Assembly (NCBI GenBank): GCA_026692845.1
Contig: JAPLNM010000181.1
Coordinates: 5,945 to 69,944, forward strand
Direction: 5' to 3'
Source of the DNA: Planctomycetota bacterium
GTDB taxonomy: Bacteria; Planctomycetota; Planctomycetia; Pirellulales; Pirellulaceae
Length of the DNA stretch: 64,000 nucleotides
Shown: piece after piece, positions 1 through 15,533 of the stretch
Position numbering within the stretch: position 1 is the first letter of the stretch
How the letters are laid out: the number at the start of each line of letters is the position of its first letter
Notes under the pieces: generated by a model
Database searches by the model: none
Told to the model about the DNA's origin: nothing
Seen by the model: the letters and a program-made list of their open reading frames with translations, nothing else
Translations under genes and position numbers: made by a program

Positions 1-609
1 GATGGTTCGTTTGCGATTGAAGCCGGCATCTTCCGACTGCGTGCGGATCTTCCGCGTCGCGAATAACACGGCATCACTCCACTCGCTCATCAGCGCCGCA
101 GCGTGCTTGTGGAGCCTGGGGCTGTAGCGGTCGTAGGGCGATGATTCGGGGTCCTCGAATCGCTCGACCTTGCTATGCGCGATCATCAAAACGACCATCC
201 CACGCTGGTTTCGCAGCGCATTGAGGTGCTCGATGATTTCCCGCCAGTAGGTCAGCGCGAGCGTGTAGCCCTTGGCATAGCCACCAGCGACCTGCTCGAT
301 CGAGGTGGCGTTGTGTTCGGCACACAATCGGTCGAATACCAGTCGCTCAAGCCAATCCAGCGAATCGATAACCACGCTCTCGTAGTCATGCGACTCGCGC
401 TGCAGATCCGTCAAAGCCGAGATCACCTCTTCGTACTTGGTCGCCAGCGGAAATTTGTCGACATCGATCTCATCCAAGCCGTCTTCACATTGGATGAAGA
501 CTGGCTTCGGTGCTTGAGAGGCGAAAGTCGATTTGCCGACGCCTTCGATTCCGTAACAAAGAATTCGAGGTGGTCTCGCGGTGCGACCCCGCTGTAGTTT
601 TGAGAGCAT
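1..609 (-). CDS. AAA_24 / Sak4-like RecA-fold ATPase (phage or mobile-element type); C-terminus runs off the window
   Basis: Absent from the ORF track because no stop codon lies in the window. My minus-strand translation from the ATG at 609-607 reads MLSKLQRGRTARPPRILCYGIEGVGKSTFASQAPKPVFIQCEDGLDEIDV... It has Walker A GIEGVGKST, then VVIDSLDWLE and VVLMIAHSK strands typical of PF13479-like proteins. The start lies 2 nt after the stop of the upstream ORF. Confidence 0.7.
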   Translation of the reverse strand, partial: MLSKLQRGRTARPPRILCYGIEGVGKSTFASQAPKPVFIQCEDGLDEIDVDKFPLATKYEEVISALTDLQRESHDYESVVIDSLDWLERLVFDRLCAEHNATSIEQVAGGYAKGYTLALTYWREIIEHLNALRNQRGMVVLMIAHSKVERFEDPESSPYDRYSPRLHKHAAALMSEWSDAVLFATRKIRTQSEDAGFNRKRTI

Positions 610-611
610 GC

Positions 612-911
612 TCACGCGGCCACCCCCTTGCACTGTTGCTGCTTGGAAACGCGTTCGACGTCGAACGCGTCAGGTCCGAACTCCCGAGCAATGAAGCCCG
701 TGAAGAGCCGGTTGAGATCTCGTCCGATCTGCGTGCCCGCGTCGATGACGAGGGCACGCGTGTTCGGATCGAGGTAATGAGCCGCATCAAGTCGAGTCTG
801 GGCTTCGCCATGCAGGCTCTCTGTTGCCAGAACGGCCAGCAGGAACGAGGCTTCGACCTCCTCGACGGGCACTTCCGCAGTGAAGCGGTAGCGATACAGT
901 TCCTTGGTCAT
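612..911 (-). CDS. hypothetical protein (99 aa), co-oriented and tightly packed with the AAA_24 gene
   Basis: ORF-track ORF with no recognisable motif. Its stop lies 2 nt from the downstream start, which suggests an operon. Confidence 0.5.
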   Translation of the reverse strand: MTKELYRYRFTAEVPVEEVEASFLLAVLATESLHGEAQTRLDAAHYLDPNTRALVIDAGTQIGRDLNRLFTGFIAREFGPDAFDVERVSKQQQCKGVAA

Positions 912-981
912 TTCGTTTTCCTCGCGTCGATTGGGTAGGTCTCTATCTGCTGACCTACCCGGTTCCGGCGCGAGATGACGA

Positions 982-1572
982 TTACGATTCCAGGTAATCC
1001 TGCATGCCTGCTTTTTCGAATCGCTGCCGAATGCGACGCATCCAGTCGTTGAGCGTCGTGCGAGGAATGCCCATCACTTCCGCGATTTCCACCATCGTTC
1101 GCGATTTCCGCAGCTCGAGCATGGTTCGCCATGCGTCCGGCAGCGTGGACATGACCTCCGCCATGTCCAGCGCCAATTCGTTAAGCTCCTGCTCGCTGCG
1201 ACGCTCGCGGCCGAATCGGGCATCGAGTTCTCGATCGCCGATGGTTTGGGACAACTCCGTCGGCCCTTCGTCGGTGATCTCGATCGTCACGTTGAGTGAC
1301 GTGATCCGTCGATAGTCGCGTTTCTCCGCCTTCTTGTTGCGAAGCATGTTGGCGACGTACCGCTCGACAACGGCCGTGACGAATTTGTTGCGATGAGCAA
1401 CGTCCGGATTGAATCGGGGCAGGCTCTGCAGCACGCGAGCGAATAGTTCCTGTTCGAGGGACTCGCGGTCCTGCAAAGTGAATCCAGCACGACCGATCAA
1501 CTGGTTGACCTTGCGCTTGATAATGCCGCGGATGAAACGATCTTCACTGGGATCAAAACTGGCCTTCGCCAT
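982..1572 (-). CDS. ECF-type sigma-70 family RNA polymerase sigma factor (mobile-element encoded)
   Basis: Region-2-like segment ELFARVLQSLPRFNPD...FVTAVVERYVANMLR. Region-4 HTH segment LPDAWRTMLELRKSRTMVEIAEVMGIPRTTLNDWMRRIRQRF. I trimmed the start to MAKASFDP (ATG at 1572), which has GAGGAG 10 nt upstream. The longer track ORF to 1695 looks like a non-coding extension. Confidence 0.7.
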   Translation of the reverse strand: MAKASFDPSEDRFIRGIIKRKVNQLIGRAGFTLQDRESLEQELFARVLQSLPRFNPDVAHRNKFVTAVVERYVANMLRNKKAEKRDYRRITSLNVTIEITDEGPTELSQTIGDRELDARFGRERRSEQELNELALDMAEVMSTLPDAWRTMLELRKSRTMVEIAEVMGIPRTTLNDWMRRIRQRFEKAGMQDYLES

Positions 1573-1581
1573 AATTAAAAA

Positions 1582-1599
1582 CTCCTCGCCGGCGAGGAG
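1582..1599 (-). promoter_or_regulatory. perfect 18-bp palindrome (CTCCTCGCCGGCGAGGAG) containing the sigma-gene Shine-Dalgarno, followed by TTTTT on the minus strand
   Basis: Read directly from the sequence. On the minus strand the hairpin is followed by TTTTTAATT and then the ATG. It could act as an upstream terminator, an RBS-sequestering hairpin, or both. Confidence 0.35.
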
Positions 1600-1781
1600 C
1601 GGGTGGCGTGGGCACACGACGAGTGGCGAAGGGAATGCAGGCCAACGAAAAAGCGGAGGCGATGCGAGTCGCGCCATAATCGGCGTCGCCCACAATCGCC
1701 TCCGCTGTGCGGCCGGCTAAAATGTCAGGTGAACAAAATTGAAAAAACGAACGTCACGCAGCGGGTGCCTAACCCCAGTGA

Positions 1782-2105
1782 TTAGGCGGGCACCTCCGTG
1801 ACGATCATGCGAAACGGCAGACCGTGCTTGATTTCCAGGACGTCGATGATGCCGTTCTGCAATTCATCGAAAAATGCGAACAGCTCAACGACCTGCTGTT
1901 TCAACGAAAAATCCATCGAGTGCAGTTCAGGACGGGGACCGTTCTCCCCCGCGAACTTGTGCTCGCGGACAATGCCTGGACTTGGCGATAAAACTGGCTG
2001 GCCGTCACGAACGTGCAAGGCTTCGAGGCGACCAAAATTGATACGCTGTAACTCTCTTACGAACTGCCTGCGCTGGGGAGTCAATGATGCCCAGGAGTGT
2101 GCCAT
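1782..2105 (-). CDS. hypothetical protein (107 aa)
   Basis: ORF-track ORF on the same strand as the sigma/AAA_24 block. No motif recognised. Confidence 0.45.
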   Translation of the reverse strand: MAHSWASLTPQRRQFVRELQRINFGRLEALHVRDGQPVLSPSPGIVREHKFAGENGPRPELHSMDFSLKQQVVELFAFFDELQNGIIDVLEIKHGLPFRMIVTEVPA

Positions 2106-2248
2106 AACTCATTCCTTTCCTTGCGGAAACGAGTCTATGGCGCATGGCGTGGCTCCAATCTAGAACCATCAAGATACGCCGAGTGCGCCCTCAAAACGGA
2201 AGGGGGAGACACCCTGCGTAGCGGAGGCTACGTCTCGCGTAGCCTTAC

Positions 2249-3155
2249 AAGCCCTGACAAAACCTTTCGGCACAGCATTTGCGCAATAGCCTGGTAGACC
2301 TCCTTGGCACCGGAGATTCCTACCATGGCCACGGCTCAACTTTCCCCCGAGTTCTTCGGCATCCTCGTCCACCACCTCCCTCCCGAATTGCCCGTCGGAC
2401 CCGCGGGTGGCCGGCCTCGGGTCGGCCATCTCACGGCGATCCGAGTGATTTGGTTCGTACTGACCACTGGGGCCCGCTGGGAGGACGTCCCGCCCGAAAT
2501 GGGCTGCTCCGGCCGCACGGCCCACCGCCGCCTCCGGGCCTGGGAAGAGGCTGGGATCTGGGATTGCCTGCACGCCGACCTGCTGGGGCTGCTGAAGCGA
2601 GCAGGCAAGCTCGACCTCGATACAGTGGTCGTCGACGGCGTCACGGTGCGGGCCTTCGGCGGCGGCGAGTCCACCGGCCCGAGCCCCGTGGACCGCAGAA
2701 AACTCGGCTCGAAACACACCGTCATGGTCAACAAGACGGGGGTCCCGCTGGTCATCCGCACCGCCGGAGCCAACGCCAGCGACCACACCCAGATCCTGCC
2801 CGTGATCCTCGACTTCCCCAAGGTTGGCGGGGTACCGGGCCGCCCCAAGGAGTTGCCCAACGCGGTGTATGCCGACCGGGGCTACGACAGCGAGTCCTTG
2901 AGGGCGCTCTTGTGGTGGCTCGGCATCGAGCCGCACATCGCCAAGCGGAAGACACCTCACGGCAGCGGCCTCGGAAAGGTCCGCTGGGTGGTCGAGCGGA
3001 CGATCAGCTGGCTCAAGGGCCTGAGGCGTTTGCGGGTCCGGTACGACCGGCTCGGCGTGATCATGAACGCCTGGACGACGCTGGCAGCAAGCGTCATCTG
3101 CTTCCGCATCCTGCGTCGTCATGCTATGTGAATATCTAGGTTTTGTCAGAGCCTT
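2249..3155 (+). mobile_element. IS5-family insertion sequence (single DDE transposase); ends approximate
   Basis: Terminal inverted repeats AGCCCTGACAAAACC (2250-2264) and the reverse complement of GGTTTTGTCAGAGCC (3139-3153) match at 13 of 15 positions. The interior is visibly much more GC-rich than both flanks. It contains one transposase ORF. Confidence 0.8.
2304..3131 (+). CDS. IS5-family DDE transposase
   Basis: N-terminal HTH-like segment RVIWFVLTTGARWEDVP...RTAHRRLRAWEEAGIW. DDE-type blocks VVVDGVTVRA, VYADRGYDS and VVERTISWLKGLRRLRVRYD are typical of IS5/IS4-like transposases. Confidence 0.9.
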   Translation: MAPEIPTMATAQLSPEFFGILVHHLPPELPVGPAGGRPRVGHLTAIRVIWFVLTTGARWEDVPPEMGCSGRTAHRRLRAWEEAGIWDCLHADLLGLLKRAGKLDLDTVVVDGVTVRAFGGGESTGPSPVDRRKLGSKHTVMVNKTGVPLVIRTAGANASDHTQILPVILDFPKVGGVPGRPKELPNAVYADRGYDSESLRALLWWLGIEPHIAKRKTPHGSGLGKVRWVVERTISWLKGLRRLRVRYDRLGVIMNAWTTLAASVICFRILRRHAM

Positions 3156-3177
3156 TTAGAATTTTCTCATTTTTTTC

Positions 3178-5301
3178 TCACCCGTTCTTTACTGGTCGTG
3201 TTTCCCAGGAAAGCAAATCTTCGGGAATGTATCTCGGCGAGTTTCCGAAACTAATTGCTTTGCCCAAGTGGTCTGCCAGGTTGGGGTCGGTTTCCCTGAT
3301 CTGCTGGTCGATGACCCTTTTTACGTTACTTCTGAAACTATCCCGGATGTTTTTCCGCTTATCATTGGATTGCTTCAGTTTTCCCCCAATGCCAACGGAT
3401 TCATTGATCTTTGAGACGATCATGGTCAAATCGCTCTGGTACTGCTGTTCAAGCACATTATTGTTGTCCCGCCGGGCATTTTCGATCTCGGCGATTAATT
3501 CCTCGGCCTCCCTTCGGTAGTCCTTAACCGCTGCCCAATCAGATATGTCTCCTAAGCTTGCAAGCAGCGGATTTGACGCCGATTGTAGCCCTTGCTCGAT
3601 CGCTTCCTGGTTGCTGATTGCTACATCGCAGAAATCGATTGCCGTTCTACAGACGATCTCGACGGCTTGTTGAGGCACATTAGGTGAACTGAGCAAGTAA
3701 TAGAGGTAGCTTGCGCCAAGCCAAGGCAAAACAGTAAACGACTTTTGCCCTCGAAATCGAACCTGCCACGCACCACCCGAACGACGAAAGAGATTGTCCG
3801 GAAGAGGTTCGTCTGGTAACGGCGTGGCAGGGACGGAAGTAGGAAGATGAGATTCATAAACGATACGCATCAACGCGTCTGGTGGGAATAATCTCTGACG
3901 AATTCCAGAGCTGTGCACAGCAAACATTTTATCAATCACTGAGTTGACCTCTCTCGCATGCCGCCGGTACAAGTCAAAGCAACGCTGCGAGGTAGCCCCC
4001 GGGTTGCCGTCCATGAACCGTAACGCTCGAGCTACCTCCGGATACTTTGAGAGAAATTGCGTTGCTGTGGCAACTCGCTCAACCTGATTGGCGCGTTCAA
4101 GGTAGTTTGCAAACATGGTCTTGTCTTCATGAACCTTGACTGTTTTGTCGCGGCTTTGCGTGAATACATCTACTGCGTACTGCCCAAGCGGATCATGATT
4201 CTCTGCATTTGCTGCGATCACGGCAAAACGACGGTCAATGCATTGAGAGCACGTGCCACAATGAGAATGCTCCTTGGTCATTTCCCAAGTATGAGTACAG
4301 CTGATTGACGGGCCAACTAGTTCTTTGCAACCTGACCTAACTATCAGGTCCACCACTTCGCCTTTGGTTTTCCAAATAAACGGGTTCTCCACAAAGAAAC
4401 CGTTATCCATCACAAGCGAAAGGAGCTTTTGAAATCCATCGAAGACACGCGGATGTGTTGTTCGAGTGGCTTTCCCGCCAACTACCTGGGCGCATATCGG
4501 CAGGTTCATGCTAATCACGCCATTCTCGTAGAATCGAACACTGGTTTGCCCCAACATGTTCGCAATTACTGCGCCCAGTGCGACATAAAGGAACGACCTG
4601 CTCCTTTGCGTATGTTCTCGGTTCATCCATTTCTTTTTGTGAACAGTTACGCGAATGTGCGTTGGCTTGTTAAAGTCCGCCTTTGCATCAAGCAAGGTCC
4701 GGATCGATCTGTAGCGTTTATCAAGCTTTTCCGTCGATCGATGATTAACAAGAATCAATCGACGTTTTTGATTGACGACCTCCTCGACAGCGCCACCGAG
4801 AGAATCCAGTCCCCCTGAAAACATGACCACTTGCTCGGGAAAACCAAGCATCGCTCCGTCGTCGTTGAGATTCGCCAGGAATCCTTGCAACGATGGGCGT
4901 TGCTTTATTGGCAGGAACTCGAAATCGTAATGATCGTCCGAAAGGAATCCGAGCGTCTCAGTAAGCAACTTTTTCACACTATCAGTCTGCCAAAAGTCAA
5001 AGTCACCAACTGGAATCACAAAATGAAAGCGGCGACGCCAGCTAGTGCCGAAGGTTTCGACGTCATTCACGCCTCTCTTGATCGCTTGGTCTGCGGCATA
5101 GACGTAAGTAGCGATATCGAGTAAGTCTCGAAGTCGAGTCGGAACATCTTTATAAATCTGCTTGCGAATGTCCTCAATTTCGAGCTTGATCTTGTGATCG
5201 TCGTCAGATCCATACAGGTGAAGGCGGAGAAGTTCACTTCCATCCTCAGGTTGCAAGTGAGGCGAGTCCGTTCCGCAAATGATGTATCGCTTACCTTCCA
5301 T
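3178..5301 (-). CDS. QueC-like PP-loop ATPase (7-cyano-7-deazaguanine synthase-like core) with about 155-aa N-terminal and about 320-aa C-terminal extra domains
   Basis: PP-loop VVMFSGGLDSLGGA. QueC-like blocks RSFLYVALGAVIA, ENPFIWKTKGEVV and Cys cluster CTHTWEMTKEHSHCGTCSQCIDRRF. At 707 aa it is about three times the length of housekeeping QueC. Its start overlaps the upstream ORF stop by 11 nt. Confidence 0.8.
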   Translation of the reverse strand: MEGKRYIICGTDSPHLQPEDGSELLRLHLYGSDDDHKIKLEIEDIRKQIYKDVPTRLRDLLDIATYVYAADQAIKRGVNDVETFGTSWRRRFHFVIPVGDFDFWQTDSVKKLLTETLGFLSDDHYDFEFLPIKQRPSLQGFLANLNDDGAMLGFPEQVVMFSGGLDSLGGAVEEVVNQKRRLILVNHRSTEKLDKRYRSIRTLLDAKADFNKPTHIRVTVHKKKWMNREHTQRSRSFLYVALGAVIANMLGQTSVRFYENGVISMNLPICAQVVGGKATRTTHPRVFDGFQKLLSLVMDNGFFVENPFIWKTKGEVVDLIVRSGCKELVGPSISCTHTWEMTKEHSHCGTCSQCIDRRFAVIAANAENHDPLGQYAVDVFTQSRDKTVKVHEDKTMFANYLERANQVERVATATQFLSKYPEVARALRFMDGNPGATSQRCFDLYRRHAREVNSVIDKMFAVHSSGIRQRLFPPDALMRIVYESHLPTSVPATPLPDEPLPDNLFRRSGGAWQVRFRGQKSFTVLPWLGASYLYYLLSSPNVPQQAVEIVCRTAIDFCDVAISNQEAIEQGLQSASNPLLASLGDISDWAAVKDYRREAEELIAEIENARRDNNNVLEQQYQSDLTMIVSKINESVGIGGKLKQSNDKRKNIRDSFRSNVKRVIDQQIRETDPNLADHLGKAISFGNSPRYIPEDLLSWETRPVKNG

Positions 5302-6085
5302 CGGCCTTAGCCCTCGCCTTCAGTTCGTCTTTCATTTTTTTCAGTGCATAGGAGGCAAAGCCCTTAACCGACTCACTTGAGATGCTGCCTTGTTCTTCGT
5401 AACGATGCTTGGAGAACCACTCCTCCGAAAACTGCTGGACGATCTCTGATGCCTCGCGACAGTGCGTGGTAAGCGCCTCTTCGAATTGAGCCATTTGATT
5501 CATTGTTGCAAATCTTTGACCCTCACCGAGATTTGTCGCAAGTGTCTTACTCAGAAAATAATTCATGCATTCATTCGTTAGCCTGGCGAAGAACTCGCGT
5601 GTGAGCATCCCAAACTCCTTTTCTTTTCGGAACTGTGCTAGCGCTTGCTGTGCATGCTCGGCCTGAAGGTTGAACAGCGACCCCTGTTCGAGTTTAGGTT
5701 CCAAGCGACGGATTACTGCATCAACCAACGCGCGTTGTGCCAATTCGCCCAGATCCGAATGTCCATCTATCGAAGCAAAGTGCCTGTCGAGCGCATCAGT
5801 GAGAGCAACGGCAATTCCGGGAAGCGATGTGTTTGCGGGAATGTCGATGCCGTGTTCTCGAAGGTACTCGAGCGGGCTAGGATGGGACTGTGCTAGTCCA
5901 AGCTGGGTCATTAGCCAAACCGCGTGGTTGTAGCCGCTATCGTCGCTGACGAATGAGAATGCTGACTCGGCGGCCTTGATGGTAGCATTGGCGACTTGGG
6001 CCACGTCTGCACCCGAAGCGACGAGTTCAACGACTTCTCGCCATTTTCGTGTTTGCGGTAGTTGCCCAAGCCTCGTATGCCCCAT
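5291..6085 (-). CDS. hypothetical protein (264 aa), translationally coupled to the QueC-like gene
   Basis: ORF-track ORF, predicted mostly helical, no motif recognised. There is an 11-nt overlap (ATGGAAGGTAA) with the downstream QueC-like start. It lies 102 nt downstream of the DUF499 ATPase on the same strand. Confidence 0.65.
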   Translation of the reverse strand: MGHTRLGQLPQTRKWREVVELVASGADVAQVANATIKAAESAFSFVSDDSGYNHAVWLMTQLGLAQSHPSPLEYLREHGIDIPANTSLPGIAVALTDALDRHFASIDGHSDLGELAQRALVDAVIRRLEPKLEQGSLFNLQAEHAQQALAQFRKEKEFGMLTREFFARLTNECMNYFLSKTLATNLGEGQRFATMNQMAQFEEALTTHCREASEIVQQFSEEWFSKHRYEEQGSISSESVKGFASYALKKMKDELKARAKADGR

Positions 6086-6187: not shown

Positions 6188-9058
6188 TCACTCCCACATT
6201 TTGCTCTTGAAGCCTAAGGCGGTTGCGTTTTCGGTAACAGCACGCTTGATTTGGTCCGAAGCTCCGGACGGGAAGTCGGCGTTGATTTCGAGTGTGATGT
6301 TGAGCGATGCGTTAGGGTCACCTGCCAGGAGGCTGATGATTTCCTCGGCGACTTGGACGAGGTGCATCTTGGCGGCTGAGGGCTTGATCTGGATGGAACC
6401 GTGAAAGGTCTTCGGTTTCGATGCGGTGGTTGTGCCTCCGCCAGTCGTGCCCGTTCCGCCGCTGGTTCCGGTTCCAGTCTCGCTGCCAGTGGTTGAGCCT
6501 GTGCCAGTCGCGCCGCCGGTTGTGGCACCGCCGGTTGATGTGCCGCCAGTGGTCTCTGTTGTACCAGACTTTTTGGCTTCCTCCGCCTTCTTCAAGTTGG
6601 TCTGGTATTCGAGGGCGGCGTTGGGCTCGATCAGCAGAAGCGTGTCGTCGAACTGAACGTTTCCTTCGCCAACATGGAACCCGGTGTATTTGTCGCCTTC
6701 CTGGCCGTAGGCCGTGCCGAAGAAGTCGCTTGATGCTGCTCCCGTGCGAATTGCCTGTGTCAACGAATCGCGGTTCTTGAGCCTCGGCAAGTACAAATAT
6801 CGCAGCGTGTCTTCCCAGAAGGCCATCGCTCCAGCTGCGGCTTTACCGTCCTTCCAGTACAGATACTTGAGCTTCGCGCGGAGGTGGATCGGGGACCAGG
6901 TCGTGATGACCAGTTCGTTGTCGATGCAGACTCGCTCGATCTCGCTGCCTGCCGAGCCGCCGGTGGTCGTGAGCGGGAATGCTTCGACGGTCGGCTTCGG
7001 GTCGGTGGGCGTATTTTGAACCGGGCACAGGAGCCATTTGTAGCATTCACGCGCGGCGCGGGGCACGACTTCTTCGGCGCTTTGAAGTTCCTTTTCGGCT
7101 TGCTTCTTTTGGAGCAGGTCGATGTTGAGTCGGCCTTCCTTTACGTCTTCGACGATGGAGTGCCAAGCCAGAGCCACGCGGGCGGTGTCTCGGAGTCTGG
7201 CCAGTACAGCCATGTCGGGTGCGAGAAAGACGAGCCGATTGCCTCGGTATCGCGGCTTGGTGCCGTTGTTGCGCACGTAATCGAGTACCACGCCTTCAGC
7301 CGGTTGTTTCAGATCTCGCGAGTGGCAGTTTTCTGGCGCGAGGACGACGAGGCGGAGCGCACTATCATCGGGTACGTCACCATGCGGTGTGAAGATGTGG
7401 ACGCCGTCGAAGAATGTCGCGCTGCCCACCATCTTCTTGAGCGCTTCGCCGATTTTGCCTCGCACATCGGTGCCGTCTTCAAATCGTCGCTTACGGTCTT
7501 CCATTTCGCGGCGCAGGTTGGCGCGGGTATCGAACCAGAAGCGAGTGGCCTCTTGGGCTTTGTCGCCGGAGCTGTTGAGGTAGTGGAGTCGATCCGCCAA
7601 GCGGTTTAGGGCGTCGATGTAGGTAGCGGAGGTCTGGCCCGGCTGTAAACAACCGAGCAGGACGCGAGCCCGATCGAGGCCACGAATTCCAGCCTTCCCG
7701 GCAACCGACGAGGGGGCACTGCCGAGAAACAGCGTGCGGGCGACGCGGCGAGCGGCGTTCACTTGGCCGAAGCGAGGTTCCTTGTTCTCCAGCTCGGTCG
7801 TCTCGGCACGGTCGCCGTCGATGTCCTTTTCGACAACGGCGTCCCAACCGGCGGGCAAATAGTACGTCAGCTCGTTCCGCGAACTACCATCGTGCAGCGG
7901 AAGACTACCGGGCAGAATCATCAGGTCTTTGTTGTCATCCTTCCAGAGTCGGTAGATGACCTTGGCCATCAATTTCAGCACACCGCGTGTGCGCTGGAAT
8001 CCGTCGATAGTGGTCCAGTCCTCGTACAGCCGATCGAACACTTCGGGATGGATCGGGTAGGCTTGCACCAGTCGGTCGTAGTAGCGGCCTTCCTGCGTCT
8101 CGGCGGGAAGCTTGGAACCTTCGGCCACATAGGCATCGGCAAAGGCTCGGCATACTGCGTCGCGGGTTTTGCCGTCACGCATTGGCTCGAACAATCGCCG
8201 CCGCACAATCTCAAACGCTTCCTCGGTGGCGACCGGCTTCCAGAGCGCCTGAATTCGACCAAAGGTCTTTTCAAGAGCCCGGAGTGCCGCGACGCCACGT
8301 TGGCTGCCAGCTTCAACTTCGGATTCGGGCAACGATGCCAGGACGATGGCATTGGGAACGAGCTTCACCGCTTCCGTGAGCGCCTGCACGAACGACAGGT
8401 TGGTGTCGTAGCTGCCGCCGCTCAGGGTCTGGCCTTCGGAGAACTGCCGGACGTAGGCGACGAGTTCGTCGATCAGAATGATGCATGGTGCATATTGGGT
8501 CAGCAAATCGCGCAACACGTCTTTGCCTGGCGACGTTCCCGTGGCATCGGCTTCCTTTACCAGCGCGTACCCCTCGCTCCCGCCAAGCTGCCAAGCAAGT
8601 TCGCCCCACAGCGTCTTGATCGTTTGCTTGCCGTGTTTCCAGGCTTGGCCGGGCGCGTGAGCCGTCCCGTCCAAAACCGCAACGCGGGCCTGGGGTACGT
8701 CCATCATTCCGGCTTGCTCGACGAGCGAGGGAATGCCGGCCAGTTCCGACAGAGCGCACTTGCGTGTGGCTAGGTGGTATACGGCCAGCATGGTGTGCGT
8801 CTTGCCGCCACCGAACGCGGTTTGAAGCTGGATGACCGGCTCGCCACCCTTGCTGACAAGCCGCTGGGCAACCTGCGTCAACAATAATCGCATCCCCTCG
8901 GTGATGAAGGTGCGATCATAGAACGCCGAGGCATCCTGGTATTCTTTGGTGGCTTTTCCGGAATGCACCGCCGTGATATCGGCCGCGAACTCCGACTGCT
9001 GAAAGGTTCCTTCCAGCACATCGCGATGCGGTACAGCAATTTCTCGCCAAGGTTTCAT
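6188..9058 (-). CDS. DUF499-family P-loop ATPase (ATPase component of a helicase-methylase-ATPase module)
   Basis: Walker [12 protein letters not shown] and Walker [12 protein letters not shown]. The N-terminus [19 protein letters not shown] is characteristic of DUF499. A G/T-rich low-complexity linker precedes a small C-terminal domain. I prefer the ATG at 9058; the track's TTG at 9073 would overlap the methylase stop. Confidence 0.85.
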
Positions 9059-9069
9059 GGTCTGTTCCC

Positions 9070-11997
9070 TCAATTGTCAAACAGTGTGCGTTGGGTGGCG
9101 GTCGGTTCTTTGGCGGCGGCGGATTCGATTCCGGACCAGGAGGTGACGACTTCGTTGTAGGCGCGGGCGTCTTCGGCCCAGTTCTTGCGCTCGCAGAGCG
9201 TGTAAAGCCGGTATGCGAGTTGGCGGGCGGCTTCGGCTTTGGACTGAACAGCGGCAAAGACAGCCGCCGCTCCCGTTTCGCCGTCGGTGTTGAAGACGCG
9301 GATCAGTTGGTGCAGGACTTCCCAAATTGGAAGCCGTTGATCGGCTTGCGGGTCCCAGTCACTCGGATACTCAGCCCATTTCAGCAGACGAACATTCCCG
9401 CCCGCCGCGTGGAGCACTCCTGCCTGCTTTACGCCGTCGACGCTGGTTCCTTTAGATCGGGCAAGTACATCCGCCTCGCCGAAGTTGCCTGTCTCCCAGC
9501 CATATTGCTCGAACCAGTGCAAACAGAACTGTGTATCAGCGTCGAAGTCATCTTCTGCAAGGAATCGATTAATAAGTTGGAGTGCAGTGTGTACAGTCAT
9601 CGGAGTTCCGTCAGCCTCTAGCACTGCTGAGTATTTTGAAAAGACTGCCATGCCCGGACCGATGATTGCTTGGGAAAGGTCGACCGGCGCGACGGGCGAA
9701 TGTAGGCCCTCACTCTCCCGAGTCATGGCATCTAACGCAATTGGAAGAGTGGCATTCAGCTCTCGTATGAAATGGCGTCGGGAAATTGAATCAGCCCCAG
9801 GCTTTCGCCGTTGACACACAAGCACTATTGATGACGCGAGAGCATTCGAGTCCATGCCACGCATTCGACTAGAATTTTCAGTTCTTACGGGCCATGTGCC
9901 GGTAATATGCAAACCAGAGCTAAGCACAGCTTCGAGAAACGTCTCCCATCCTGTACTGTTCGTTCCAGCAGCTTCCGTTTCAGATTGTTTGAATGCGTAG
10001 AATATGGTTACAGGAAACGCGGGATGTGACTGAGCAGCCAGTCTTCGCATTACCAGCGTCATTCCGCTCAAAAAGAATTGCTCGGCCTTCTCTTTCGTTC
10101 CGTGTCGGTATGTTACGGCGACAAGTTCCTCGGCTTTTGGGACAGCGATCGTAGCGAGTAGTTCAGGAAAGACTTCGCGAAGAGAGCGCCTGAGCCAGAT
10201 GTAAAAGAAGTCAGATAAGTCGGCATAGCCAATATTGTCATAATAAGGCGGATCAGTTGAGATAACCTTACCACATGAAATATTTTGGGTTGAAGCATCC
10301 GCCTGCTGCGCCAAGCCGATTGACTTTGCGGACACACCTCCAAACGCATTTGCGAAAGCATTCGAAATGCCGTTTACGAAAACGGCCCAAGAGCCGGACG
10401 AATCACCAAGCGGGTTCCCCTCGGCGAAGTCCCAGATGATTGGGATGGCTTGCCTTCCAAAGAGATTTCGTGGGCATTGCGCGATCGGCTCCCATCGGCA
10501 AAGGCTATTTGCCAAGTCAGCTTGCTTGCTCAGGACGAATGCAAGATACACACTAATTGCTTCGGCATAGGCTCTTGCACCATTGCCATGATGCCCGAGT
10601 GCTTGATCATCGTCGGCGAAGCCGGCGGAGATAGCGTCCGCGCAGATCTTTGTACGCGATTCGCTCACGAGATCACTGAGAGTTATCAAGGCCTTTAGCT
10701 GGCGTGACGTAAACAACTGATCGAATCGGGTCATGCCATAGAGTAGGCATGTCATAGGTCGTGGATCGTTTGCAATTTGAACTCTAATTGAATCAACCCC
10801 AGCACCAGGGGATGCTGCCTTTGCAATCTCTTCGTGCTCGGCAGTTGGCGAGTGATAAACACGACCGCTCGTGCCTTCAGCCACGATTGCCATAAGCTTT
10901 GCACCCATGCGGCCTGCGGCCGCCTCTGCTTTAATATATTCTGGTTCAATTGCGGCTTGGGACATGACGCAGCGAAAGTTTGCGCCTCTAGCAGCCTTTG
11001 TCCCGGTCTTAGCTTCGACCGGTGGTTTGCCGGTTCTAACGGCAAAGTGATAACATCCCTGCGCAATCACTGGCTCGACGTAACTCTCCTTACCCGGCTT
11101 GCTGCAAAGGATAAAAGAACTAGCAAGAGGCACATCAATGTGCGAAAACGCAGGGTTCGGGCTCTTGACGGTTCTGGCCCAAAGCCAAGCAATGACGTTC
11201 AGCTTCCTGCCCTCATACGATTTTAGATCTGGGCGATCTTTCACAGTATGACTTGTGATGGCAAGGGGCGGATAGAGACTGCCGATGCGCTTCTTTGCTT
11301 CGTCTAATATCCACTGGCCGTAGTAACGCAGATCTTCCGCAATACCCTCCGCTCCCCTCCGATCACCTGCAATTAATAGCTCGGCGTTCCGCGACTGAGC
11401 GTTCACCGGTGGCCTTCCAGCAAATCTCGGCGGAATCTCAATCATTGCTTTGTTAATGAGTACGGAAACAGGATTCAGGTCGGAGGCGTACGCATCGATC
11501 CCAAGGCGATGCGCTTCAAGGGGAATAGCTCCGCCGCCTGCGAATGGATCATGCAATCCAGGAAGCTTGTCAGCGTCAAACAGTTCCTTAGCGAGTGGGT
11601 GTTCCTTATTGAGTTCACACGTCTCTCGCCAGCTTTGGCGGATCGCATCGCGCGCCTTTTTTAGAAATGTCTCGTTTGTAGTGTTTTCCCATTTCACCAG
11701 CTCTTCGATGATTTCAAAGAGTCGGGCACGGGCTTTTGTCCAATGTCCTTTGACCTGCTGGTTTGGTTCGTTCCCCGGGTTTTGGCATCGCCAAAGATCC
11801 TCAGGGTCATTCACCAGCTGTGAGAAGATCACTGCTCGCGCCGCCGCGAGTGGGCGACGCGCCCACCAAAGATGCAACGAACTTGGATGGCCCTGCCTAA
11901 TGGATTTTTCCCGAGCCGACGCTTCGTTTATTGCGTCCAGCGGCAATGCAACTTCGATCAACTTCTTCGGCGAGATAACGGGATGATTAACGGTCAT
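9070..11997 (-). CDS. DUF1156-family DNA methyltransferase (DPPY motif; N6-adenine or N4-cytosine type)
   Basis: N-terminal DUF1156 signature [40 protein letters not shown]. Putative SAM-binding segment [13 protein letters not shown]. Catalytic motif [27 protein letters not shown] overlap with the helicase stop. Confidence 0.9.
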
Positions 11998-14900
11998 CGT
12001 GACTCGCCTTTCTGAAGCAGATCGCTCAGGTTGTAATTGATCGAGGAAACGCCCCAGCCGGGCTCGCGGTCGAACGGGCGTCGAATGTAGTACGGCCCTT
12101 CGTGGCTGTCGTCTTCGTTGACCAGGACGATAGCCAGCACGAACTTGTCGCCTTGATTGAAGGCGTAGAGCATCTCATTGCGGGTGACGGTAATCGTGGC
12201 TGCCCCTTTGATGCGTCCCTTGACCTCAATGTGACGCGGGTCCGGTTGCTTTTGTTCGATGGCTGGCGGATGCGATGTCAGATCCCAGCCGCATTTGTCA
12301 GCGGACACATCGACAACGTGGCAGCCTTGGGATTCTTCAGTGTGCCGGACGGCGTCCATCGCGATGCGTTCGATACGGCTGCGAGCGATTGGATCGGCTG
12401 AGAAGCTGGACGAGGATTCTTCCTCGCCGCGAACCCGACGCATCAAGCCAGCCGGAACGACCAGAGCACCACCGAGGACAATCGGTGTGCCGTTAACAAC
12501 GTGACGCATCGACTGGAGTTCCTTCCTGCGATTCTCCAACCGACCTTCGAGATCGGTGACGGTGCGGCGGGCGTTCTCCACGTTCAAACGCACATCCTTG
12601 CCCGCTTCCTGGTCTTCCTTCAGCTTGAGCCAACGATCCGACCAGAATTCAATCTCGCGACTCAATCGCTCATGAACGGCTGCCAGCGTCTTGTCGACAT
12701 GGGCCACGCGACGGTCGTTTACTTCGCGGAAGTGTTCTGGAACGATCGATGTGGCAGCCAGCGCCACAGCACGTTGTTCCTGGTCGGCCCGAATCCATGG
12801 CGCATCGAGAACGTCTTTGATGAGCGATCGCTCTGAATCGGCCAGTGGCTCCAAGTCGAGATGCGGTGCCCAGCCTGCGAACGAAGTTGAGCCATCGGGG
12901 TTGACTCGCACAAACTGCAATCGCTTGGAGAGGACTTGCCCATCGCCTGATTTCACTTCGTGCGTGACGAGGAACATGAGCCACGGCTCGACGCCATCAT
13001 CGGCGGGGTCAATCAGCACCGTTCCTTGACGCAGGAGGTTGGCATGCTGCTCCAGCAGCAAGTCACTGACGGCGAGCATCAACGGATGACCGGGATGCAT
13101 CAGGACGGCGCGGGAGATTCCTGGTTTATCAGACGGTTGCAAGGCATCCTTTTCAAAGCAGATGCGATCGTAGCGTTTCAACACCGGCTCTTGTTCGCGG
13201 CGATTGCGGCCGGTGATCCGGCGATCACGCTCGCGAATGGATGTGGGGACGTGGGTGACCTCGAACCGTCCCAGCTCGCGTGGATAGATCGAACCGCCGA
13301 TTTGCTCAAAGGCCTTTAGGAAGAACGATCGCACGAAGTAGGGTTGCAGGCGGCGTGCTTCGGCCTTCTCCATTTCTCCCTTCACGGCATACAGCCGGTC
13401 GGCACTCATCGTCTCTTGCGCGAGTGCGTTTCGGTTGAGAAGGGATTTCAAATGGTTGTGATCGAGAGCTTGGTCGATCTTGCGCGAGAGTCGAGACCGC
13501 ACTTCGGGTTGATCGCCGTAGCGAATGGCTTGAATCAGCAAATCCTTCAAGCTGGTTTCTTCGAAGACTTCGCCCAGGATGTCGAACACACGACCTTTCA
13601 AAGCGTCGCTTTCGACTTCCAATTTTTCCAGCAGCCGATGGTAAACGTCGCCTTCGCGTGTCTCTTTTGCCACGAGGTTCCAAAGATGGCAAACCTCGAC
13701 TTGTCCGATTCGGTGAATACGACCGAATCGTTGTTCCAGCCGATTGGGGTTCCACGGGAGATCGTAGTTGACCATCAGGTTGGCACATTGCAGGTTCACA
13801 CCTTCGCCCGCTGCATCGGTAGCGACCAGCACACGGACATCGGGATCGGAACGAAACAATGCCTGAATCTTACGTCGTTCGTCGCGATGCGTTCCGCCAT
13901 GAATCGTGACGACCGCTTCATGATTGCCGATCACGCCAGCAATCTTTTCATGGAGATAATTGAGCGTGTCGCGATGCTCGGAAAAGATGATCAACTTGCG
14001 TTGGCGACCGGATGCATCGCGCATCTCAGGTGCGTTTTGCAGGATCTTGGAGAGTTCGTCCCATTTGCGATCCTGGCCCGATGCGACCACGGTCTTGGCT
14101 TGGGCCTCAAGGCCTTTGAGAATGACGATCTCAGCCTCAAGCTCGTTGATGCTGCGGGCGGCCGTGGCATCATCGACGAGGGTCTCTTCCAGGTTTTCTT
14201 GTTCTTCGGCATTGAGATCGTCGTCATCCTCGGGAACGTCCGCCAATGTATCGGCGAGTACTTGGCGGCCCCGAATGCCGAGCTTCTCTTCACGTAGTCG
14301 GCTTTCGAGACGTTCCTTGCGGCGGCGCAGCGATTGGTAGATGGCTTCTGGACTAGAGGCGAGTCGTCGCTGAAGTGCGGTAAGTGCGAAACCAACCGAT
14401 CCCTTACGAGAGCCGGTCAACTCGTCGGCCTTGCCCATTTCCGTTTTGACGTAGTCCGTGACAGACTCGTACAGGCCAACTTCGATGTCGGAAAGCTTGT
14501 AGTTGACGGTGTAGGCTTTGCGTTCTGGGAACAGCGGTGTGTTGTCGAACTTGACGAGTTCTTCCTTGACCATCCGCCGCATGAGGTCAGAGCAATCAAC
14601 CTGGTGTGCCGCATCGCCCCGGAACTTGCCGTAGAAACGGTCGGAATCAAGGAGGGACAGAAATAGTTGGAAGTCCTCGTCTTTGCCGTTGTGGGGAGTC
14701 GCTGTCATCAAAAGCAGGTGGCGAGTTCGTTCACCAACTCGCTCAGCCAGACGAAAGCGAGCGGTTTTTTCCAGCTTCGTTCCGAAGTAGTGTGCCGACA
14801 ACTTGTGGGCTTCGTCGAATACGACCAAATCCCAACCCGCTTCCAACAACTTGATCTGTAGATTCCCAGGCGCTCGTCCTGTGGGTGTTTGCTCTTCGGC

Positions 14901-15533
14901 CCGGGACAGCTGGTCCAAGCGAATGATCAGGTGATTATGTTCTTCAAATGGGTTGCCGCTAGGAGAGGCTTGTTCAAGCTCCGACGAATAGATGCGGAAC
15001 TCCAAGCCGAACTTTTCGTATAACTCGTCTCGCCATTGTTCCACCAAGCTACCAGGTGCCACAATCAATATGCGATGCGCATCGGCTCGCATGACGAGCT
15101 CGCGAATATAGAGGCCCGCCATGATCGTCTTGCCCGCGCCCGGATCGTCGGCCAGGACAAATCGGAGCGGCTGCCGGGGAAGCATCGATTCGTAGACGGC
15201 AGTGATTTGATGCGGCAACGGATCGACGTTTGATGTGTGGACCGCCATCATCGGATCGAACAGGAACGCGAGGTCGATGCGTTTGGCTTCGCAAGTCAAC
15301 TGAAACGCCGCGCCATCGCCATCAAACGACCACGGACGCTCGACGGTGGCGATGCTGAGATTGGCTTCGTCATCGCGGCCAAGTAGACGTTCTTTCGTGG
15401 TGCCATCGGGCGTTCGATAGAAGACCTGCACCGCACCATCACCAATCGGCACGACGGCAGCGACGGTCGCGACTGAAGCAGGCTCCAGTCCGACAAGCGG
15501 AAGTCCAGGTTTGAGGTCTTCGAGTTTGAGCAT
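11994..15533 (-). CDS. SNF2/DEAD-like superfamily-2 helicase with C-terminal DUF3883 (PD-(D/E)xK nuclease-like) domain
   Basis: Helicase motifs [20 protein letters not shown] and [11 protein letters not shown]. The C-terminal segment [16 protein letters not shown]...[23 protein letters not shown]...FVLAIVLV matches the DUF3883 pattern. Confidence 0.9.

What the first reader, a model, noticed from the sequence alone, without database searches (positions are those of the whole stretch)
3178..6085. Oversized QueC-like PP-loop ATPase plus a translationally coupled 264-aa partner, with no TGT, TatD or CD-NTase nearby: candidate new nucleobase-conjugation-type defence module
What the sequence shows:
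- A 707-aa ORF has an unmistakable QueC-type core: SGGLDS PP-loop, NPFIWKTKGEVV and the Cys cluster CTHTW...HCGTCSQC.
- The core is embedded between an N-terminal domain of about 155 aa and a helical C-terminal domain of about 320 aa.
- The C-terminal domain contains a winged-helix-like segment, GGAWQVRFRGQKSFTVLPWLGASYLYYLLSSPN.
- The start codon overlaps the stop of a 264-aa unknown ORF by 11 nt, so the two are almost certainly made together.
- Both sit on the same strand, 102 nt downstream of a helicase-methylase-ATPase operon, inside an island full of defence-type genes.

What I recall from the literature (needs verification):
- QueC-like proteins occur in QatABCD, where QatC sits next to the small unknown QatB, an ATPase and a TatD nuclease.
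- They also occur in type IV CBASS as Cap9, together with a TGT-like Cap10.
- There the QueC-like enzyme was recently reported to attach a 7-deazaguanine derivative to a partner protein.

Inference:
- The 264-aa protein, whose N-terminus is MGH..., may be the conjugation substrate or partner, analogous to QatB.
- The extra domains of the 707-aa protein, or the neighbouring DUF499 ATPase and the DUF3883 nuclease-like helicase, may replace the missing TatD/ATPase functions.
- I do not recognise this gene combination as a described system.
Basis: partly seen in the sequence, partly recalled or inferred. Interest (0 to 1): 0.85.

Follow-up and report, generated by a model that had tools for sequence, protein, structure and literature searches.

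The report
Long QatC enzyme with new partner
This is an undescribed two-gene relative of the QatB-QatC anti-phage core: a QueC-like enzyme with an extra tail domain and a new partner protein it probably tags at its first glycine, carried as swappable cargo in prophage-like elements of many bacterial phyla.

Summary
Window 5291..6085(-) encodes a 264-aa protein. Window 3178..5301(-) encodes a 707-aa QueC-like protein. The two genes overlap by 11 nt.

The 707-aa protein belongs to the QatC clade, not to housekeeping QueC or Cap9:
- hhalign against QatC gives E 3.5e-50 over residues 21-460.
- All QatC signature motifs are present, including TRTTHP.
- Residues ~495-707 form an orphan domain that also occurs on unrelated proteins.

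The 264-aa partner shows no detectable homology to QatB. It does keep an invariant N-terminal Met-Gly-His and an LP...W motif like QatB's.

The pair is conserved in 80 of 81 loci. At least 569 species genomes and 177 IMG/VR contigs encode a relative of the long enzyme.

The neighbouring Hma system is not an obligate partner. Bona fide Hma sits nearby in the window and 3 of the 80 other loci.

The pair usually sits beside a serine-recombinase module in prophage-like elements. In sister proviruses it is cleanly replaced, together with its repressor gene, by another cassette.

Best reading: a QatBC-like minimal N-terminal conjugation module acting in prophage-borne phage exclusion. It is a new variant of a known kind. 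Function is untested.

The parts
5291..6085 (-). 264-aa partner protein ('MGH partner'). It is all-alpha, and the first ~14 residues are a free tail.
   Evidence: ORF. Family of ~255-265 aa with 1505 representatives at E<=1e-3. AlphaFold2 model: pLDDT 79.6, pTM 0.83, 11 helices. No hit in Pfam, PADLOC, NCBIfam, PHROGs or PDB sequences. Foldseek found nothing in PDB or BFVD.
6041..6085 (-). N-terminal motif MGHxRLGxLPxTRKW of the partner. It is the presumed acceptor glycine (Gly2 after Met removal) plus the docking motif.
   Evidence: M1, G2, H3, L9 and W15 are invariant in 20 and in 44 sequences. In 62 of 80 loci the longest ORF starts with MGH. QatB has MGTS...P16..W18, and both G2 and residues 16-22 are essential (PMC13279940).
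5291..5301 (-). 11-nt overlap between the partner's stop codon and the enzyme's start codon (translational coupling).
   Evidence: The same 11-nt overlap occurs in 56 of 80 loci and an 8-nt overlap in 7.
3178..5301 (-). 707-aa long QatC-family PP-loop ATPase ('QatC-L').
   Evidence: PADLOC QatC 9.3e-56. NCBIfam QatC 212.7 bits, below the 280-bit cutoff. PDB QatC 9vlk/9zee, 3.7e-29. hhalign against the QatC alignment: probability 100%, E 3.5e-50.
3922..5241 (-). QatC-homologous region (residues 21-460): N-terminal extension, QueC Rossmann core and canonical C-terminal helices.
   Evidence: hhalign aligned range 21-460. Present motifs: D59, D71x4R76, W88xR90, D123xY125, R233xR235, E259xG261, P307x4T312K313 and Y375, matching the QatC motif list in PMC13329287.
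4801..4818 (-). PP-loop SGGLDS (residues 162-167), which binds the ATP pyrophosphate.
   Evidence: Invariant in A1. SGGxDS is present in 80 of 81 loci.
4450..4467 (-). TRTTHP (residues 279-284). These QatC-specific threonines replace the Tyr/Asp that recognise CDG in QueC and Cap9.
   Evidence: Aligned to STRTTHP of QatC 9vlk. Present in 79 of 81 loci. T278 and T280 are essential in P. aeruginosa QatC (PMC13279940).
4240..4299 (-). Zinc-binding cysteine cluster: C335, C348, C351 and C354, followed by DRR.
   Evidence: Invariant in A1. The pattern is present in 81 of 81 loci.
3181..3819 (-). Orphan C-terminal domain (residues ~495-707): a small three-stranded sheet with a helix, then long helices. 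The domain is portable.
   Evidence: AlphaFold2 model of residues 390-707: pLDDT 83. No PDB fold or sequence match and no Pfam match. No similarity to QatA or QatD. An HMM of this domain hits, at 1e-33 to 1e-39, the C-terminal halves of ~400-aa proteins that lack a PP-loop, in 6 provirus loci.
2244..3159 (+). Context: an IS5-family insertion sequence between QatC-L and the prophage early genes. It is not part of the module.
   Evidence: A gene call in a 99.98%-identical contig gives a 268-aa DUF4096+DDE_Tnp_1 transposase. There are 22-nt inverted repeats at 2244-2265 and 3138-3159. The element is absent at this position in the other loci.
1..2105 (-). Context: phage-type early genes. They are a 107-aa unknown (1782..2105), an ECF-like sigma factor (982..1695), a 99-aa unknown (612..911) and a Sak4-like ATPase (1..633, cut by the window edge).
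   Evidence: NCBIfam and PHROGs. The same block lies downstream of the pair in 20-22 loci.
6188..15533 (-). Context: a complete Hma system (HmaC, HmaB, HmaA) inserted between the pair and the recombinase module. It is an independent neighbour.
   Evidence: Full-length PADLOC HmaA/B/C hits. Hma is near the pair in only 3 of the 80 other loci.
15547..18848 (.). Context: the integration module. It comprises a MerR/HTH_17 protein (15547..16020, -), a DUF2924 protein (16311..16829, +), a large serine recombinase (16826..18367, +) and a 162-aa protein (18360..18848, +).
   Evidence: Pfam. The same DUF2924 + serine-recombinase module lies within 10 kb of the pair in 44 of 80 loci. The counterpart of the 162-aa protein in L003 hits a PHROG 'recombinase' family.

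Best explanation
This is a two-gene, QatBC-like N-terminal conjugation module carried as cargo by prophage-like elements.

Shown by the analyses:
- The 707-aa protein is a QatC-clade PP-loop ATPase with intact ATP-binding, zinc and QatC-specific active-site motifs.
- It is always encoded with, and translationally coupled to, a ~262-aa all-helical partner.
- The only invariant stretch of the partner is its extreme N-terminus, MGH...LP...W.

Inferred by analogy with QatB-QatC and with Cap9-CdnD:
- Met1 of the partner is removed.
- The Gly2 tail threads into the enzyme's active site.
- The enzyme uses ATP to adenylate a carboxylate. The likely substrate is 7-carboxy-7-deazaguanine from the host queuosine pathway.
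- That group is then transferred to the Gly2 amine.
- The state of this modification arms or triggers the complex, which blocks an infecting phage.

The extra C-terminal domain is a separable unit. I infer that it is the sensor or output part that stands in for QatA and QatD. The effector chemistry is unknown.

The module sits downstream of the prophage repressor gene, as rexAB sits after cI in lambda. I therefore expect it to be expressed in lysogens and to act as superinfection exclusion or defence.
For: Family placement:
- PADLOC QatC 9.3e-56.
- PDB QatC 3.7e-29, with TRTTHP aligned.
- hhalign E 3.5e-50 over residues 21-460.
- All Cluster-2 (QatC) motifs of PMC13329287 are found.
- Motifs are conserved in 79-81 of 81 loci.

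Partnership:
- The partner is directly upstream on the same strand in 80 of 81 loci.
- The gene overlap is conserved.
- MGH is invariant.
- A short LPxxxxW motif is shared with QatB and with a third partner family.

Literature:
- QatBC alone is sufficient for defence.
- QatB G2 and its tail motif are essential.
- The QatB tail sits in the QatC active site.
- An NDG-modified QatB N-terminal peptide was detected (PMC13279940, PMC13376578, PMC13639016).

Cargo and defence context:
- 177 IMG/VR contigs carry a relative of the enzyme.
- The pair lies beside the recombinase module in 44 of 80 loci.
- Hma and type IIG restriction-modification genes are neighbours in loci without the recombinase.
- In proviruses with 96-97% identical flanks, a clean 3.5-kb cassette is swapped. 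In one set it is a DBD-only repressor plus the pair. In the other it is a LexA-like repressor plus two other genes.
- GC content dips to 0.50 across the pair, against ~0.58 in the flanks.
Against: - There are no experimental data for this family.
- The partner is not detectably homologous to QatB: hhalign probability 3%, no hit to QatB models, no PDB hit.
- Its free tail is ~14 aa, against 30-90 aa in QatB.
- Position 3 is an invariant His rather than Thr.
- The enzyme scores below the NCBIfam QatC equivalog cutoff.
- No effector domain can be named.
- Even for canonical QatC, the chemistry was not reconstituted in vitro and the modification was seen only at low level.
- The tight linkage to one family of integrative elements, and the co-swapping with the repressor gene, would also fit a role in the element's own lysogeny control.
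Confidence: 0.6

Rival explanations
1. The pair is part of the prophage's own lysis-lysogeny circuitry rather than a defence system. It would work with the 77-aa repressor that consists only of a DNA-binding domain. For example, it could sense host state and control induction, taking over the job of the missing RecA-responsive S24 peptidase domain.
For: - In 42 loci a LexA-type winged-helix protein without an S24 domain lies directly upstream on the same strand.
- In sister proviruses the whole cassette is exchanged for a full LexA-like repressor (DNA-binding domain plus Peptidase_S24) and two other genes.
- The pair is linked to the same recombinase family in 44 of 80 loci.
Against: - The pair also occurs without the winged-helix gene or the recombinase: in the window itself and in about 14 loci, where it sits next to Hma or type IIG restriction-modification genes.
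- Its closest characterised relatives are defence proteins.
- Genes downstream of prophage repressors are classically exclusion genes.
- In the window, Hma has been inserted into the same slot, which marks it as a cargo hotspot.
Confidence: 0.15
2. The enzyme does not modify the partner. It makes or modifies a small molecule or a nucleic acid, for example a 7-deazaguanine derivative as in Dpd-type DNA modification. The 264-aa protein would then be a scaffold, regulator or effector.
For: - The Tyr/Asp pair that recognises CDG in QueC and Cap9 is replaced by Thr-x-Thr, so the first substrate is uncertain even for QatC.
- The partner's globular domain is unrelated to QatB.
Against: - No TGT/DpdA or any other conserved pathway gene accompanies the pair in 81 loci.
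- The strictly invariant Met-Gly-His N-terminus of the partner is hard to explain unless the N-terminus is itself the reactive or recognised element.
- QatC does not complement an E. coli queC deletion (PMC13329287).
Confidence: 0.12
3. The pair is an accessory of the adjacent Hma (helicase-methylase-ATPase) system and supplies or receives functions from it.
For: - In the window the pair lies on the same strand, 102 nt downstream of hmaC.
- Hma is also near the pair in L071, L077 and L078.
Against: - Bona fide Hma is absent from the other 77 loci.
- Where it is present, it occurs in both orientations.
- In relatives of the window's element the pair abuts the repressor and recombinase genes directly, so Hma is an insertion into the same slot.
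Confidence: 0.03
4. It is a housekeeping or divergent queuosine-biosynthesis QueC, as the database annotation '7-cyano-7-deazaguanine synthase' states.
For: - A Pfam QueC hit at 3.1e-07 over residues 287-360.
- The public annotation.
Against: - The TIGR00364 QueC model scores 24 bits against a cutoff of 150.
- Canonical QueC catalytic motifs are replaced by the QatC set.
- No que genes are nearby.
- The gene is located on a mobile element.
Confidence: 0.02

Closest known systems
QatB-QatC core of the QatABCD anti-phage system (Gao et al. 2020; structures 9vlk, 9zee; PMC13279940, PMC13376578, PMC13639016)
   Same: - The enzyme clade is the same, with about 30% identity over ~350-400 aa.
- The N-terminal extension, PP-loop, zinc site, TRTTHP motif and C-terminal helices are all kept.
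- The gene order is the same: partner first, enzyme second, with overlapping genes.
- The partner is an all-helical protein of ~260 aa with a Met-Gly N-terminus and an LP..W tail motif.
- QatBC alone can defend, so a two-gene version is plausible.
   Different: - QatA (KAP NTPase) and QatD (TatD) are absent.
- The partner's globular domain is not detectably homologous to QatB (PF28083 and the NCBIfam and PADLOC QatB models all miss it; hhalign probability 3%).
- The partner's tail is ~14 aa rather than 30-90 aa, and begins MGH rather than MGTS.
- The enzyme carries an extra ~210-aa portable C-terminal domain.
- The enzyme scores below the NCBIfam QatC cutoff.
- The genomic setting is mostly prophage-like elements.
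Cap9-CdnD of type IV CBASS (deazaguanylation; bioRxiv 10.1101/2025.04.06.647259)
   Same: A QueC-family enzyme acts on the N-terminal glycine of a partner protein encoded next to it, and the chemistry depends on an ATP-binding PP-loop.
   Different: - Cap9 is a minimal ~185-aa QueC that keeps the canonical CDG-binding Tyr/Asp.
- Its substrate is a CD-NTase, and a TGT-like Cap10 is present.
- None of these features is found here.
Plasmid-borne QatC-like variant with an ImmA/IrrE-XRE protein (L084-L086; apparently unnamed)
   Same: - It also has a small partner gene upstream, followed by a QatC-like enzyme.
- It also lacks QatA and QatD.
- Its partner shares only the N-terminal G-x-H...LP...W motif with the 264-aa protein.
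   Different: - Its enzyme is 458 aa and lacks the extra C-terminal domain.
- Its partner is ~190 aa and starts MSDGPH.
- It is followed by an XRE/ImmA-IrrE peptidase gene and a ~200-aa gene.
Lambda cI-rexA-rexB (positional analogy only, from general knowledge)
   Same: A two-gene module lies directly downstream of the prophage repressor gene within the immunity region, and it is exchanged together with the repressor between related phages.
   Different: There is no sequence or mechanistic relationship. Co-transcription with the repressor has not been tested here, and the window copy has no repressor gene upstream.

Membership tests
QatC protein family (QueC Cluster 2) | SGGxDS PP-loop and a four-Cys zinc site (C...CGxCxxC followed by RR) | tested here: met
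   S162-S167; C335, C348, C351, C354 and R357-R358. These are invariant in A1 and present in 80 of 81 and 81 of 81 loci.
QatC protein family (QueC Cluster 2) | QatC-specific motifs (D63; Dx4R...WxR; DxW/YxxxF; RxRxxxF/Y; ExG; T-x-T-HP; Px4TK), with the QueC motifs YxQxHxxE, VPxRN and YPDC absent | tested here: met
   D59, D71/R76/W88/R90, D123/Y125/F129, R233/R235/Y239, E259/G261, T279/T281/H283/P284 and P307/T312/K313, checked against the list in PMC13329287. The spacing between R and W is 11 residues rather than 7.
QatC protein family (QueC Cluster 2) | N- and C-terminal extensions flanking the QueC core | tested here: met
   hhalign aligns residues 21-460 to columns 14-429 of a 442-column QatC profile; probability 100%, E 3.5e-50.
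QatC protein family (QueC Cluster 2) | Score above the curated NCBIfam NF041925 equivalog cutoff | tested here: not met
   212.7 bits against a cutoff of 280. The protein is a divergent subfamily and is annotated publicly as a 7-cyano-7-deazaguanine synthase.
QatABCD system | A partner of the QatB family (PF28083; NCBIfam and PADLOC QatB models) encoded upstream of qatC | tested here: not met
   A partner is present upstream, but no QatB model matches it. Precomputed Pfam annotation is '-' for its homologues, whereas QatB homologues carry PF28083. hhalign probability is 3%. Fold-level similarity could not be tested, because QatB structures may post-date the Foldseek library.
QatABCD system | The partner has a conserved Met-Gly N-terminus on a flexible tail with a P/W docking motif | tested here: met
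   MGH is invariant, and L9-P10 and W15 are conserved. The tail is shorter (~14 aa).
QatABCD system | QatA KAP-family NTPase in the operon | tested here: not met
   No such gene is present in the window neighbourhood or among the conserved neighbours. The C-terminal domain is not similar to QatA.
QatABCD system | QatD TatD-family nuclease in the operon | tested here: not met
   No such gene is present. The C-terminal domain is not similar to QatD.
QatABCD system | Protection against phage; covalent modification of the partner's Gly2 | not testable with these tools
   This needs plaque assays and mass spectrometry.
Type IV CBASS (Cap9/Cap10/CD-NTase) | A minimal Cap9 that keeps the canonical QueC substrate motifs, with an adjacent CD-NTase and a TGT-like Cap10 | tested here: not met
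   The enzyme is QatC-type (Thr-x-Thr replaces Tyr/Asp). No CD-NTase or TGT is found among the conserved neighbours.
Canonical QueC (queuosine biosynthesis) | Score above the TIGR00364 cutoff and a que-gene context | tested here: not met
   24.2 bits against a cutoff of 150.3. The gene sits on a mobile element with no que genes among its conserved neighbours.
Hma system (PADLOC) | The pair recurs together with HmaA, HmaB and HmaC | tested here: not met
   Hma is complete in the window, but it lies near the pair in only 3 of the 80 other loci, and in both orientations.

The most novel reading that the evidence does not exclude
QatC-type enzymes may be general 'N-terminal taggers'. They would recognise unrelated partner proteins through a short N-terminal motif only (Gly, then LP...W). 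Three non-homologous partner families would already be in view: QatB, the MGH partner, and the MSDGPH partner. In this reading the portable C-terminal domain is a shared sensor or output unit. The long enzyme has it, and so does an unrelated two-gene cassette in the same prophage slot. It would link different biochemical modules to one trigger in the immunity regions of a widespread family of temperate elements. That would make this pair an experimentally simple system, two genes with no nuclease or ATPase accessory, for working out what protein deazaguanylation does.
Probability: 0.3. Interest if true: 0.8.

Novelty: new variant of a known kind. Interest (0 to 1): 0.6.

Why it matters
How QatC modification of its partner stops phage is an open question in the 2026 literature. 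The reaction could not be reconstituted in vitro, and the effector is unknown.

This family offers a natural minimal version:
- It has two genes only.
- The partner is different and has a very short tail.
- The extra domain on the enzyme is separable.
- It is present in at least about 570 species across many phyla and in 177 viral contigs.

It shows that the enzyme plus an N-terminal-glycine partner is the conserved core. The partner's body and the accessory parts are interchangeable.

Current defence finders and genome annotation miss it and label it '7-cyano-7-deazaguanine synthase'. It also marks the slot beside the repressor and recombinase genes of these prophage-like elements as a place to look for further systems.

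Tried and rejected
1. QatB homology of the partner. The PADLOC, NCBIfam and Pfam scans, phmmer and profile hmmsearch against PDB sequences and hhalign against an 18-sequence QatB alignment were all negative.

2. Fold search of the partner model against PDB and BFVD. Nothing scored below E 0.06. The PDB library stops at 2026-04-08, so QatB structures may be missing.

3. Identity of the C-terminal domain.
- Foldseek against PDB, Pfam at E<=10 on six homologues, a PDB profile search and PADLOC gave only coiled-coil noise.
- I therefore rejected the winged-helix label.
- An AP2/integrase-arm-like reading of the small sheet-plus-helix is my own impression only.

4. Testing whether the C-terminal domain is a fused QatA or QatD. 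hhalign probability was below 1%.

5. Hma linkage: rejected.

6. The 317-aa ORF as a third gene: rejected. It is the shadow of an IS transposase gene.

7. The long enzyme was not found in isolated phage genomes, nor its C-terminal domain in plasmids.

8. The promoter/terminator scan of 1700-6500 gave no more sites than shuffled sequence.

9. An alignment of the regions upstream of the partner gene in close relatives showed no conservation. My coordinates for it were also imprecise.

10. A scan of the flanking genes against PADLOC found nothing relevant.

Full report
**1. Observation**

- 3178..5301(-) encodes 707 aa.
- 5291..6085(-) encodes 264 aa.
- The two share 11 nt.
- The 264-aa gene starts 102 nt after the stop of the upstream gene.

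All quoted motifs are in the translation. The exact proteins are deposited from a Planctomycetota MAG as '7-cyano-7-deazaguanine synthase' and 'hypothetical protein'. GC content falls to 0.50 across the pair, against about 0.58 on either side.

**2. The enzyme**

Hits against profile libraries and solved structures:

| Library or model | Result |
|---|---|
| Pfam QueC | 3.1e-07, short stretch only |
| PADLOC QatC | 9.3e-56, residues 26-407 |
| NCBIfam QatC equivalog | 212.7 bits, below the 280-bit cutoff |
| NCBIfam QueC (TIGR00364) | 24 bits, cutoff 150 |
| Solved QatC structures 9vlk, 9zee | 3.7e-29 and 3.5e-22 |

In the alignment to the solved QatC structures, the loop TRTTHP aligns exactly. 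A profile-profile comparison with canonical QatC sequences taken from plasmids gives probability 100% and E 3.5e-50 over residues 21-460. The N-terminal '155-aa domain' and the first ~95 residues after the cysteine cluster are therefore ordinary QatC.

Every motif listed for the QatC cluster in PMC13329287 is present and invariant or nearly invariant in 16 homologues of 49-79% identity. Across 81 loci, SGGxDS is found in 80, TRTxHP in 79 and the cysteine cluster in all 81.

The protein is thus a member of the QatC clade. It is not QueC and not Cap9. It forms a divergent long subfamily.

**3. The extra C-terminal domain**

Residues ~495-707 are conserved through the family. An AlphaFold2 model of residues 390-707 has pLDDT 83. 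It shows helices, a disordered linker, a small three-stranded sheet with a helix, and then long helices.

Searches for relatives of this domain:
- Foldseek against PDB, Pfam at E<=10, PADLOC and a PDB profile search return nothing but coiled-coil noise.
- The domain is not related to QatA or QatD.
- The winged-helix reading is not supported.

The domain is portable. A BLASTP comparison first showed this. An HMM built from 68 long enzymes then confirmed it. The HMM matches, at 1e-33 to 1e-39 and over its full length, the C-terminal halves of ~400-aa proteins with no PP-loop. Those proteins are the second gene of a different two-gene module in the same kind of provirus. Some viral-contig relatives of the enzyme are only 550-650 aa, with a different or shorter tail, yet keep the same partner.

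**4. The partner**

The 264-aa protein has no hit in Pfam, PADLOC, NCBIfam, PHROGs or PDB sequences. Its family is large: 1505 representatives at 50% clustering reach E<=1e-3, and nearly all are 255-265 aa.

M1, G2, H3, L9 and W15 are invariant in alignments of 20 and of 44 sequences. The model is all-helical with 11 helices and pTM 0.83, and only about 14 residues at the N-terminus are free.

Canonical QatB proteins taken from qatABCD operons on plasmids start MGTS...NPLLPxW and have long disordered linkers. Their family carries PF28083, which the 264-aa family does not. Comparisons with QatB:
- Profile-profile comparison of the two families gives probability 3%.
- A PDB profile search finds no QatB.
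- Foldseek finds nothing in PDB or BFVD. The PDB fold library ends on 2026-04-08 and may lack the QatB entries.

The partner is therefore an analogue of QatB. The shared features are:
- position upstream of the enzyme gene;
- coupling to the enzyme gene;
- similar size;
- helical build;
- a Met-Gly start;
- an LP..W tail motif.

It is not a demonstrable homologue.

A third partner family turned up on plasmids. It is ~190 aa, starts MSDGPHxSLP....W, and lies upstream of a 458-aa QatC-like gene and an XRE/ImmA-IrrE gene. It again shares only the N-terminal motif.

**5. Conservation of the pair**

A scan of one genome per species found at least 569 relatives of the long enzyme. They come from Planctomycetota, Verrucomicrobiota, Acidobacteriota, Desulfobacterota, Alpha-, Beta- and Gammaproteobacteria and other groups.

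In the 80 loci fetched, plus the window:
- The partner gene is directly upstream on the same strand in 80 of 81.
- The 11-nt overlap occurs in 56 of 80 and an 8-nt overlap in 7.

**6. Context**

Bona fide Hma lies near the pair in only three of the 80 other loci (L071, L077, L078), and in both orientations.

The recurrent neighbours belong to mobile elements.
- Upstream, in 42-44 loci: a DUF2924 protein, a large serine recombinase and a ~150-aa protein on the opposite strand. A 77-83-aa LexA-type DNA-binding protein also lies directly in front of the partner gene.
- Downstream, in 20-22 loci including the window: a 107-aa unknown, an ECF-like sigma factor of phage type and a Sak4-like ATPase, sometimes with a PD-(D/E)XK nuclease.

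The window holds the same recombinase module at 16311..18848 and a MerR-type gene at 15547..16020. A STAND-type NTPase follows at 18883..21651, then a tmRNA gene at 22051-22382, and then nusA and infB. The 'island' is therefore the cargo region of a prophage-like integrative element.

In the window, two insertions have spread the element's parts:
- the complete Hma operon at 6188..15533, between the pair and the recombinase module;
- an IS5-family element at 2244..3159, between the pair and the early genes.

**7. The pair is cargo, not core**

177 IMG/VR contigs encode a relative of the long enzyme. Among 80 viral contigs found with the recombinase as the seed, most lack the pair.

Proviruses L195, L196, L204, L207 and L192 carry the DBD-only repressor gene followed by the pair. 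L194 and L199 have flanks 96-97% identical to L195. In the same 3.5-kb slot they carry a full LexA-like repressor (DNA-binding domain plus Peptidase_S24) and two unknown genes of 410 and 379 aa.

The repressor and the two-gene module are exchanged as one cassette. This is how immunity regions behave, and in lambda the exclusion genes rexAB sit in the corresponding place (general knowledge).

**8. Mechanism**

The published work establishes the following.
- QatB and QatC form a 1:1 complex that is sufficient for defence against some phages.
- The QatC PP-loop and the Thr-x-Thr motif are essential.
- QatB loses Met1. Its Gly2 tail sits in the active site.
- G2D and deletion of the tail motif abolish defence.
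- An N-terminal peptide of QatB carrying 7-amido-7-deazaguanine was detected at low level.

By homology of the enzyme and analogy of the partner, I infer the same reaction here: ATP-dependent activation of a carboxylate, followed by transfer to Gly2 of the 264-aa protein. The steps after modification are unknown for every member of this group. I assign the sensor or output role to the portable C-terminal domain and the partner's helical body, but this is inference only.

**9. Rivals**
- A role in the element's own lysogeny control fits the co-swapping with the repressor gene. It fits less well with the loci that lack both repressor and recombinase.
- A small-molecule or nucleic-acid product cannot be excluded, but it does not explain the invariant Met-Gly-His.
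- Dependence on Hma and a housekeeping QueC role are both contradicted by the data.

**10. Verdict**

This is a QatC-type enzyme with a dedicated partner that starts with glycine. It lacks the accessory genes of the known systems, and no library or paper I could search describes it.

It is a new variant of a known kind (QatBC-like), not a new category. It is widespread and overlooked by current annotation. It would be a convenient minimal system for the open question of what this protein modification does.

Noticed in passing
window 2169..3159: The 317-aa ORF on the - strand is a shadow ORF. The real gene is a 268-aa IS5-family transposase (DUF4096 + DDE_Tnp_1) on the + strand at about 2325..3131. 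It is bounded by 22-nt inverted repeats at 2244-2265 and 3138-3159. The IS separates the long QatC gene from the 107-aa gene that directly follows it in other loci.
   Followed up: yes
window 6188..15533: A complete Hma (helicase-methylase-ATPase) system with full-length PADLOC hits to HmaA, HmaB and HmaC. It appears to be inserted into the same cargo slot as the pair.
   Followed up: partly
window 18883..21651 (-): A 922-aa STAND-like protein with weak NB-ARC and TPR hits. It lies between the recombinase module and the tmRNA gene and may be another defence gene of the element.
   Followed up: no
window 22051..22382 (-): A tmRNA gene (tag peptide AENTLALAA) whose 3' end faces the island. It is the likely integration site or boundary of the element. 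nusA and infB follow at 22688 and 24418.
   Followed up: partly
L194:3976-6917 and L199 (same coordinates): An alternative immunity cassette in sister proviruses: a full LexA-like repressor (223 aa; LexA_DNA_bind + Peptidase_S24) followed by unknown proteins of 410 and 379 aa. Neither unknown has a Pfam or PADLOC hit. This may be an unknown exclusion system.
   Followed up: partly
L190:3298-5671; L185:3480-5946; also L187, L202, L215, L232: A two-gene module (400-414 aa plus 398-436 aa) in the same prophage slot. The second protein ends in a domain homologous to the C-terminal domain of the long QatC. No Pfam or PADLOC hits.
   Followed up: partly
L084:3375-7117; L085:3303-7036; L086:3270-6973 (plasmids): A third QatC-like architecture: a ~190-aa partner starting MSDGPHxSLP...W, a 458-aa QatC-like enzyme, a ~390-aa XRE/ImmA-IrrE metallopeptidase and a ~200-aa protein. 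The glycine is at position 4, so the peptidase might expose it. It lies next to Lit, Shedu and AbiE genes.
   Followed up: partly
L003:8956-9189; L013:8933-9184 (42 loci): A 77-83-aa protein that consists only of a LexA-type DNA-binding domain. It lies directly upstream of the partner gene on the same strand and is absent from the window copy.
   Followed up: partly
window 28001..30000: A strong AT skew (0.387) coincides with a 561-aa ORF at 28011..29696 that has a sub-threshold extensin-like (proline-rich repeat) hit.
   Followed up: no
window 982..1695 (-): The phage-type ECF-like sigma factor gives a weak hit (1.7e-06, far below the cutoff) to the type III-E CRISPR-associated RpoE-like sigma model. 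In 20-22 loci it lies just downstream of the pair, after a conserved 107-aa unknown.
   Followed up: no
L027: A locus of the betaproteobacterial type (48% identity to the query, same synteny as the Comamonadaceae loci) is labelled as coming from a Bifidobacterium MAG. This is probably a binning error.
   Followed up: no
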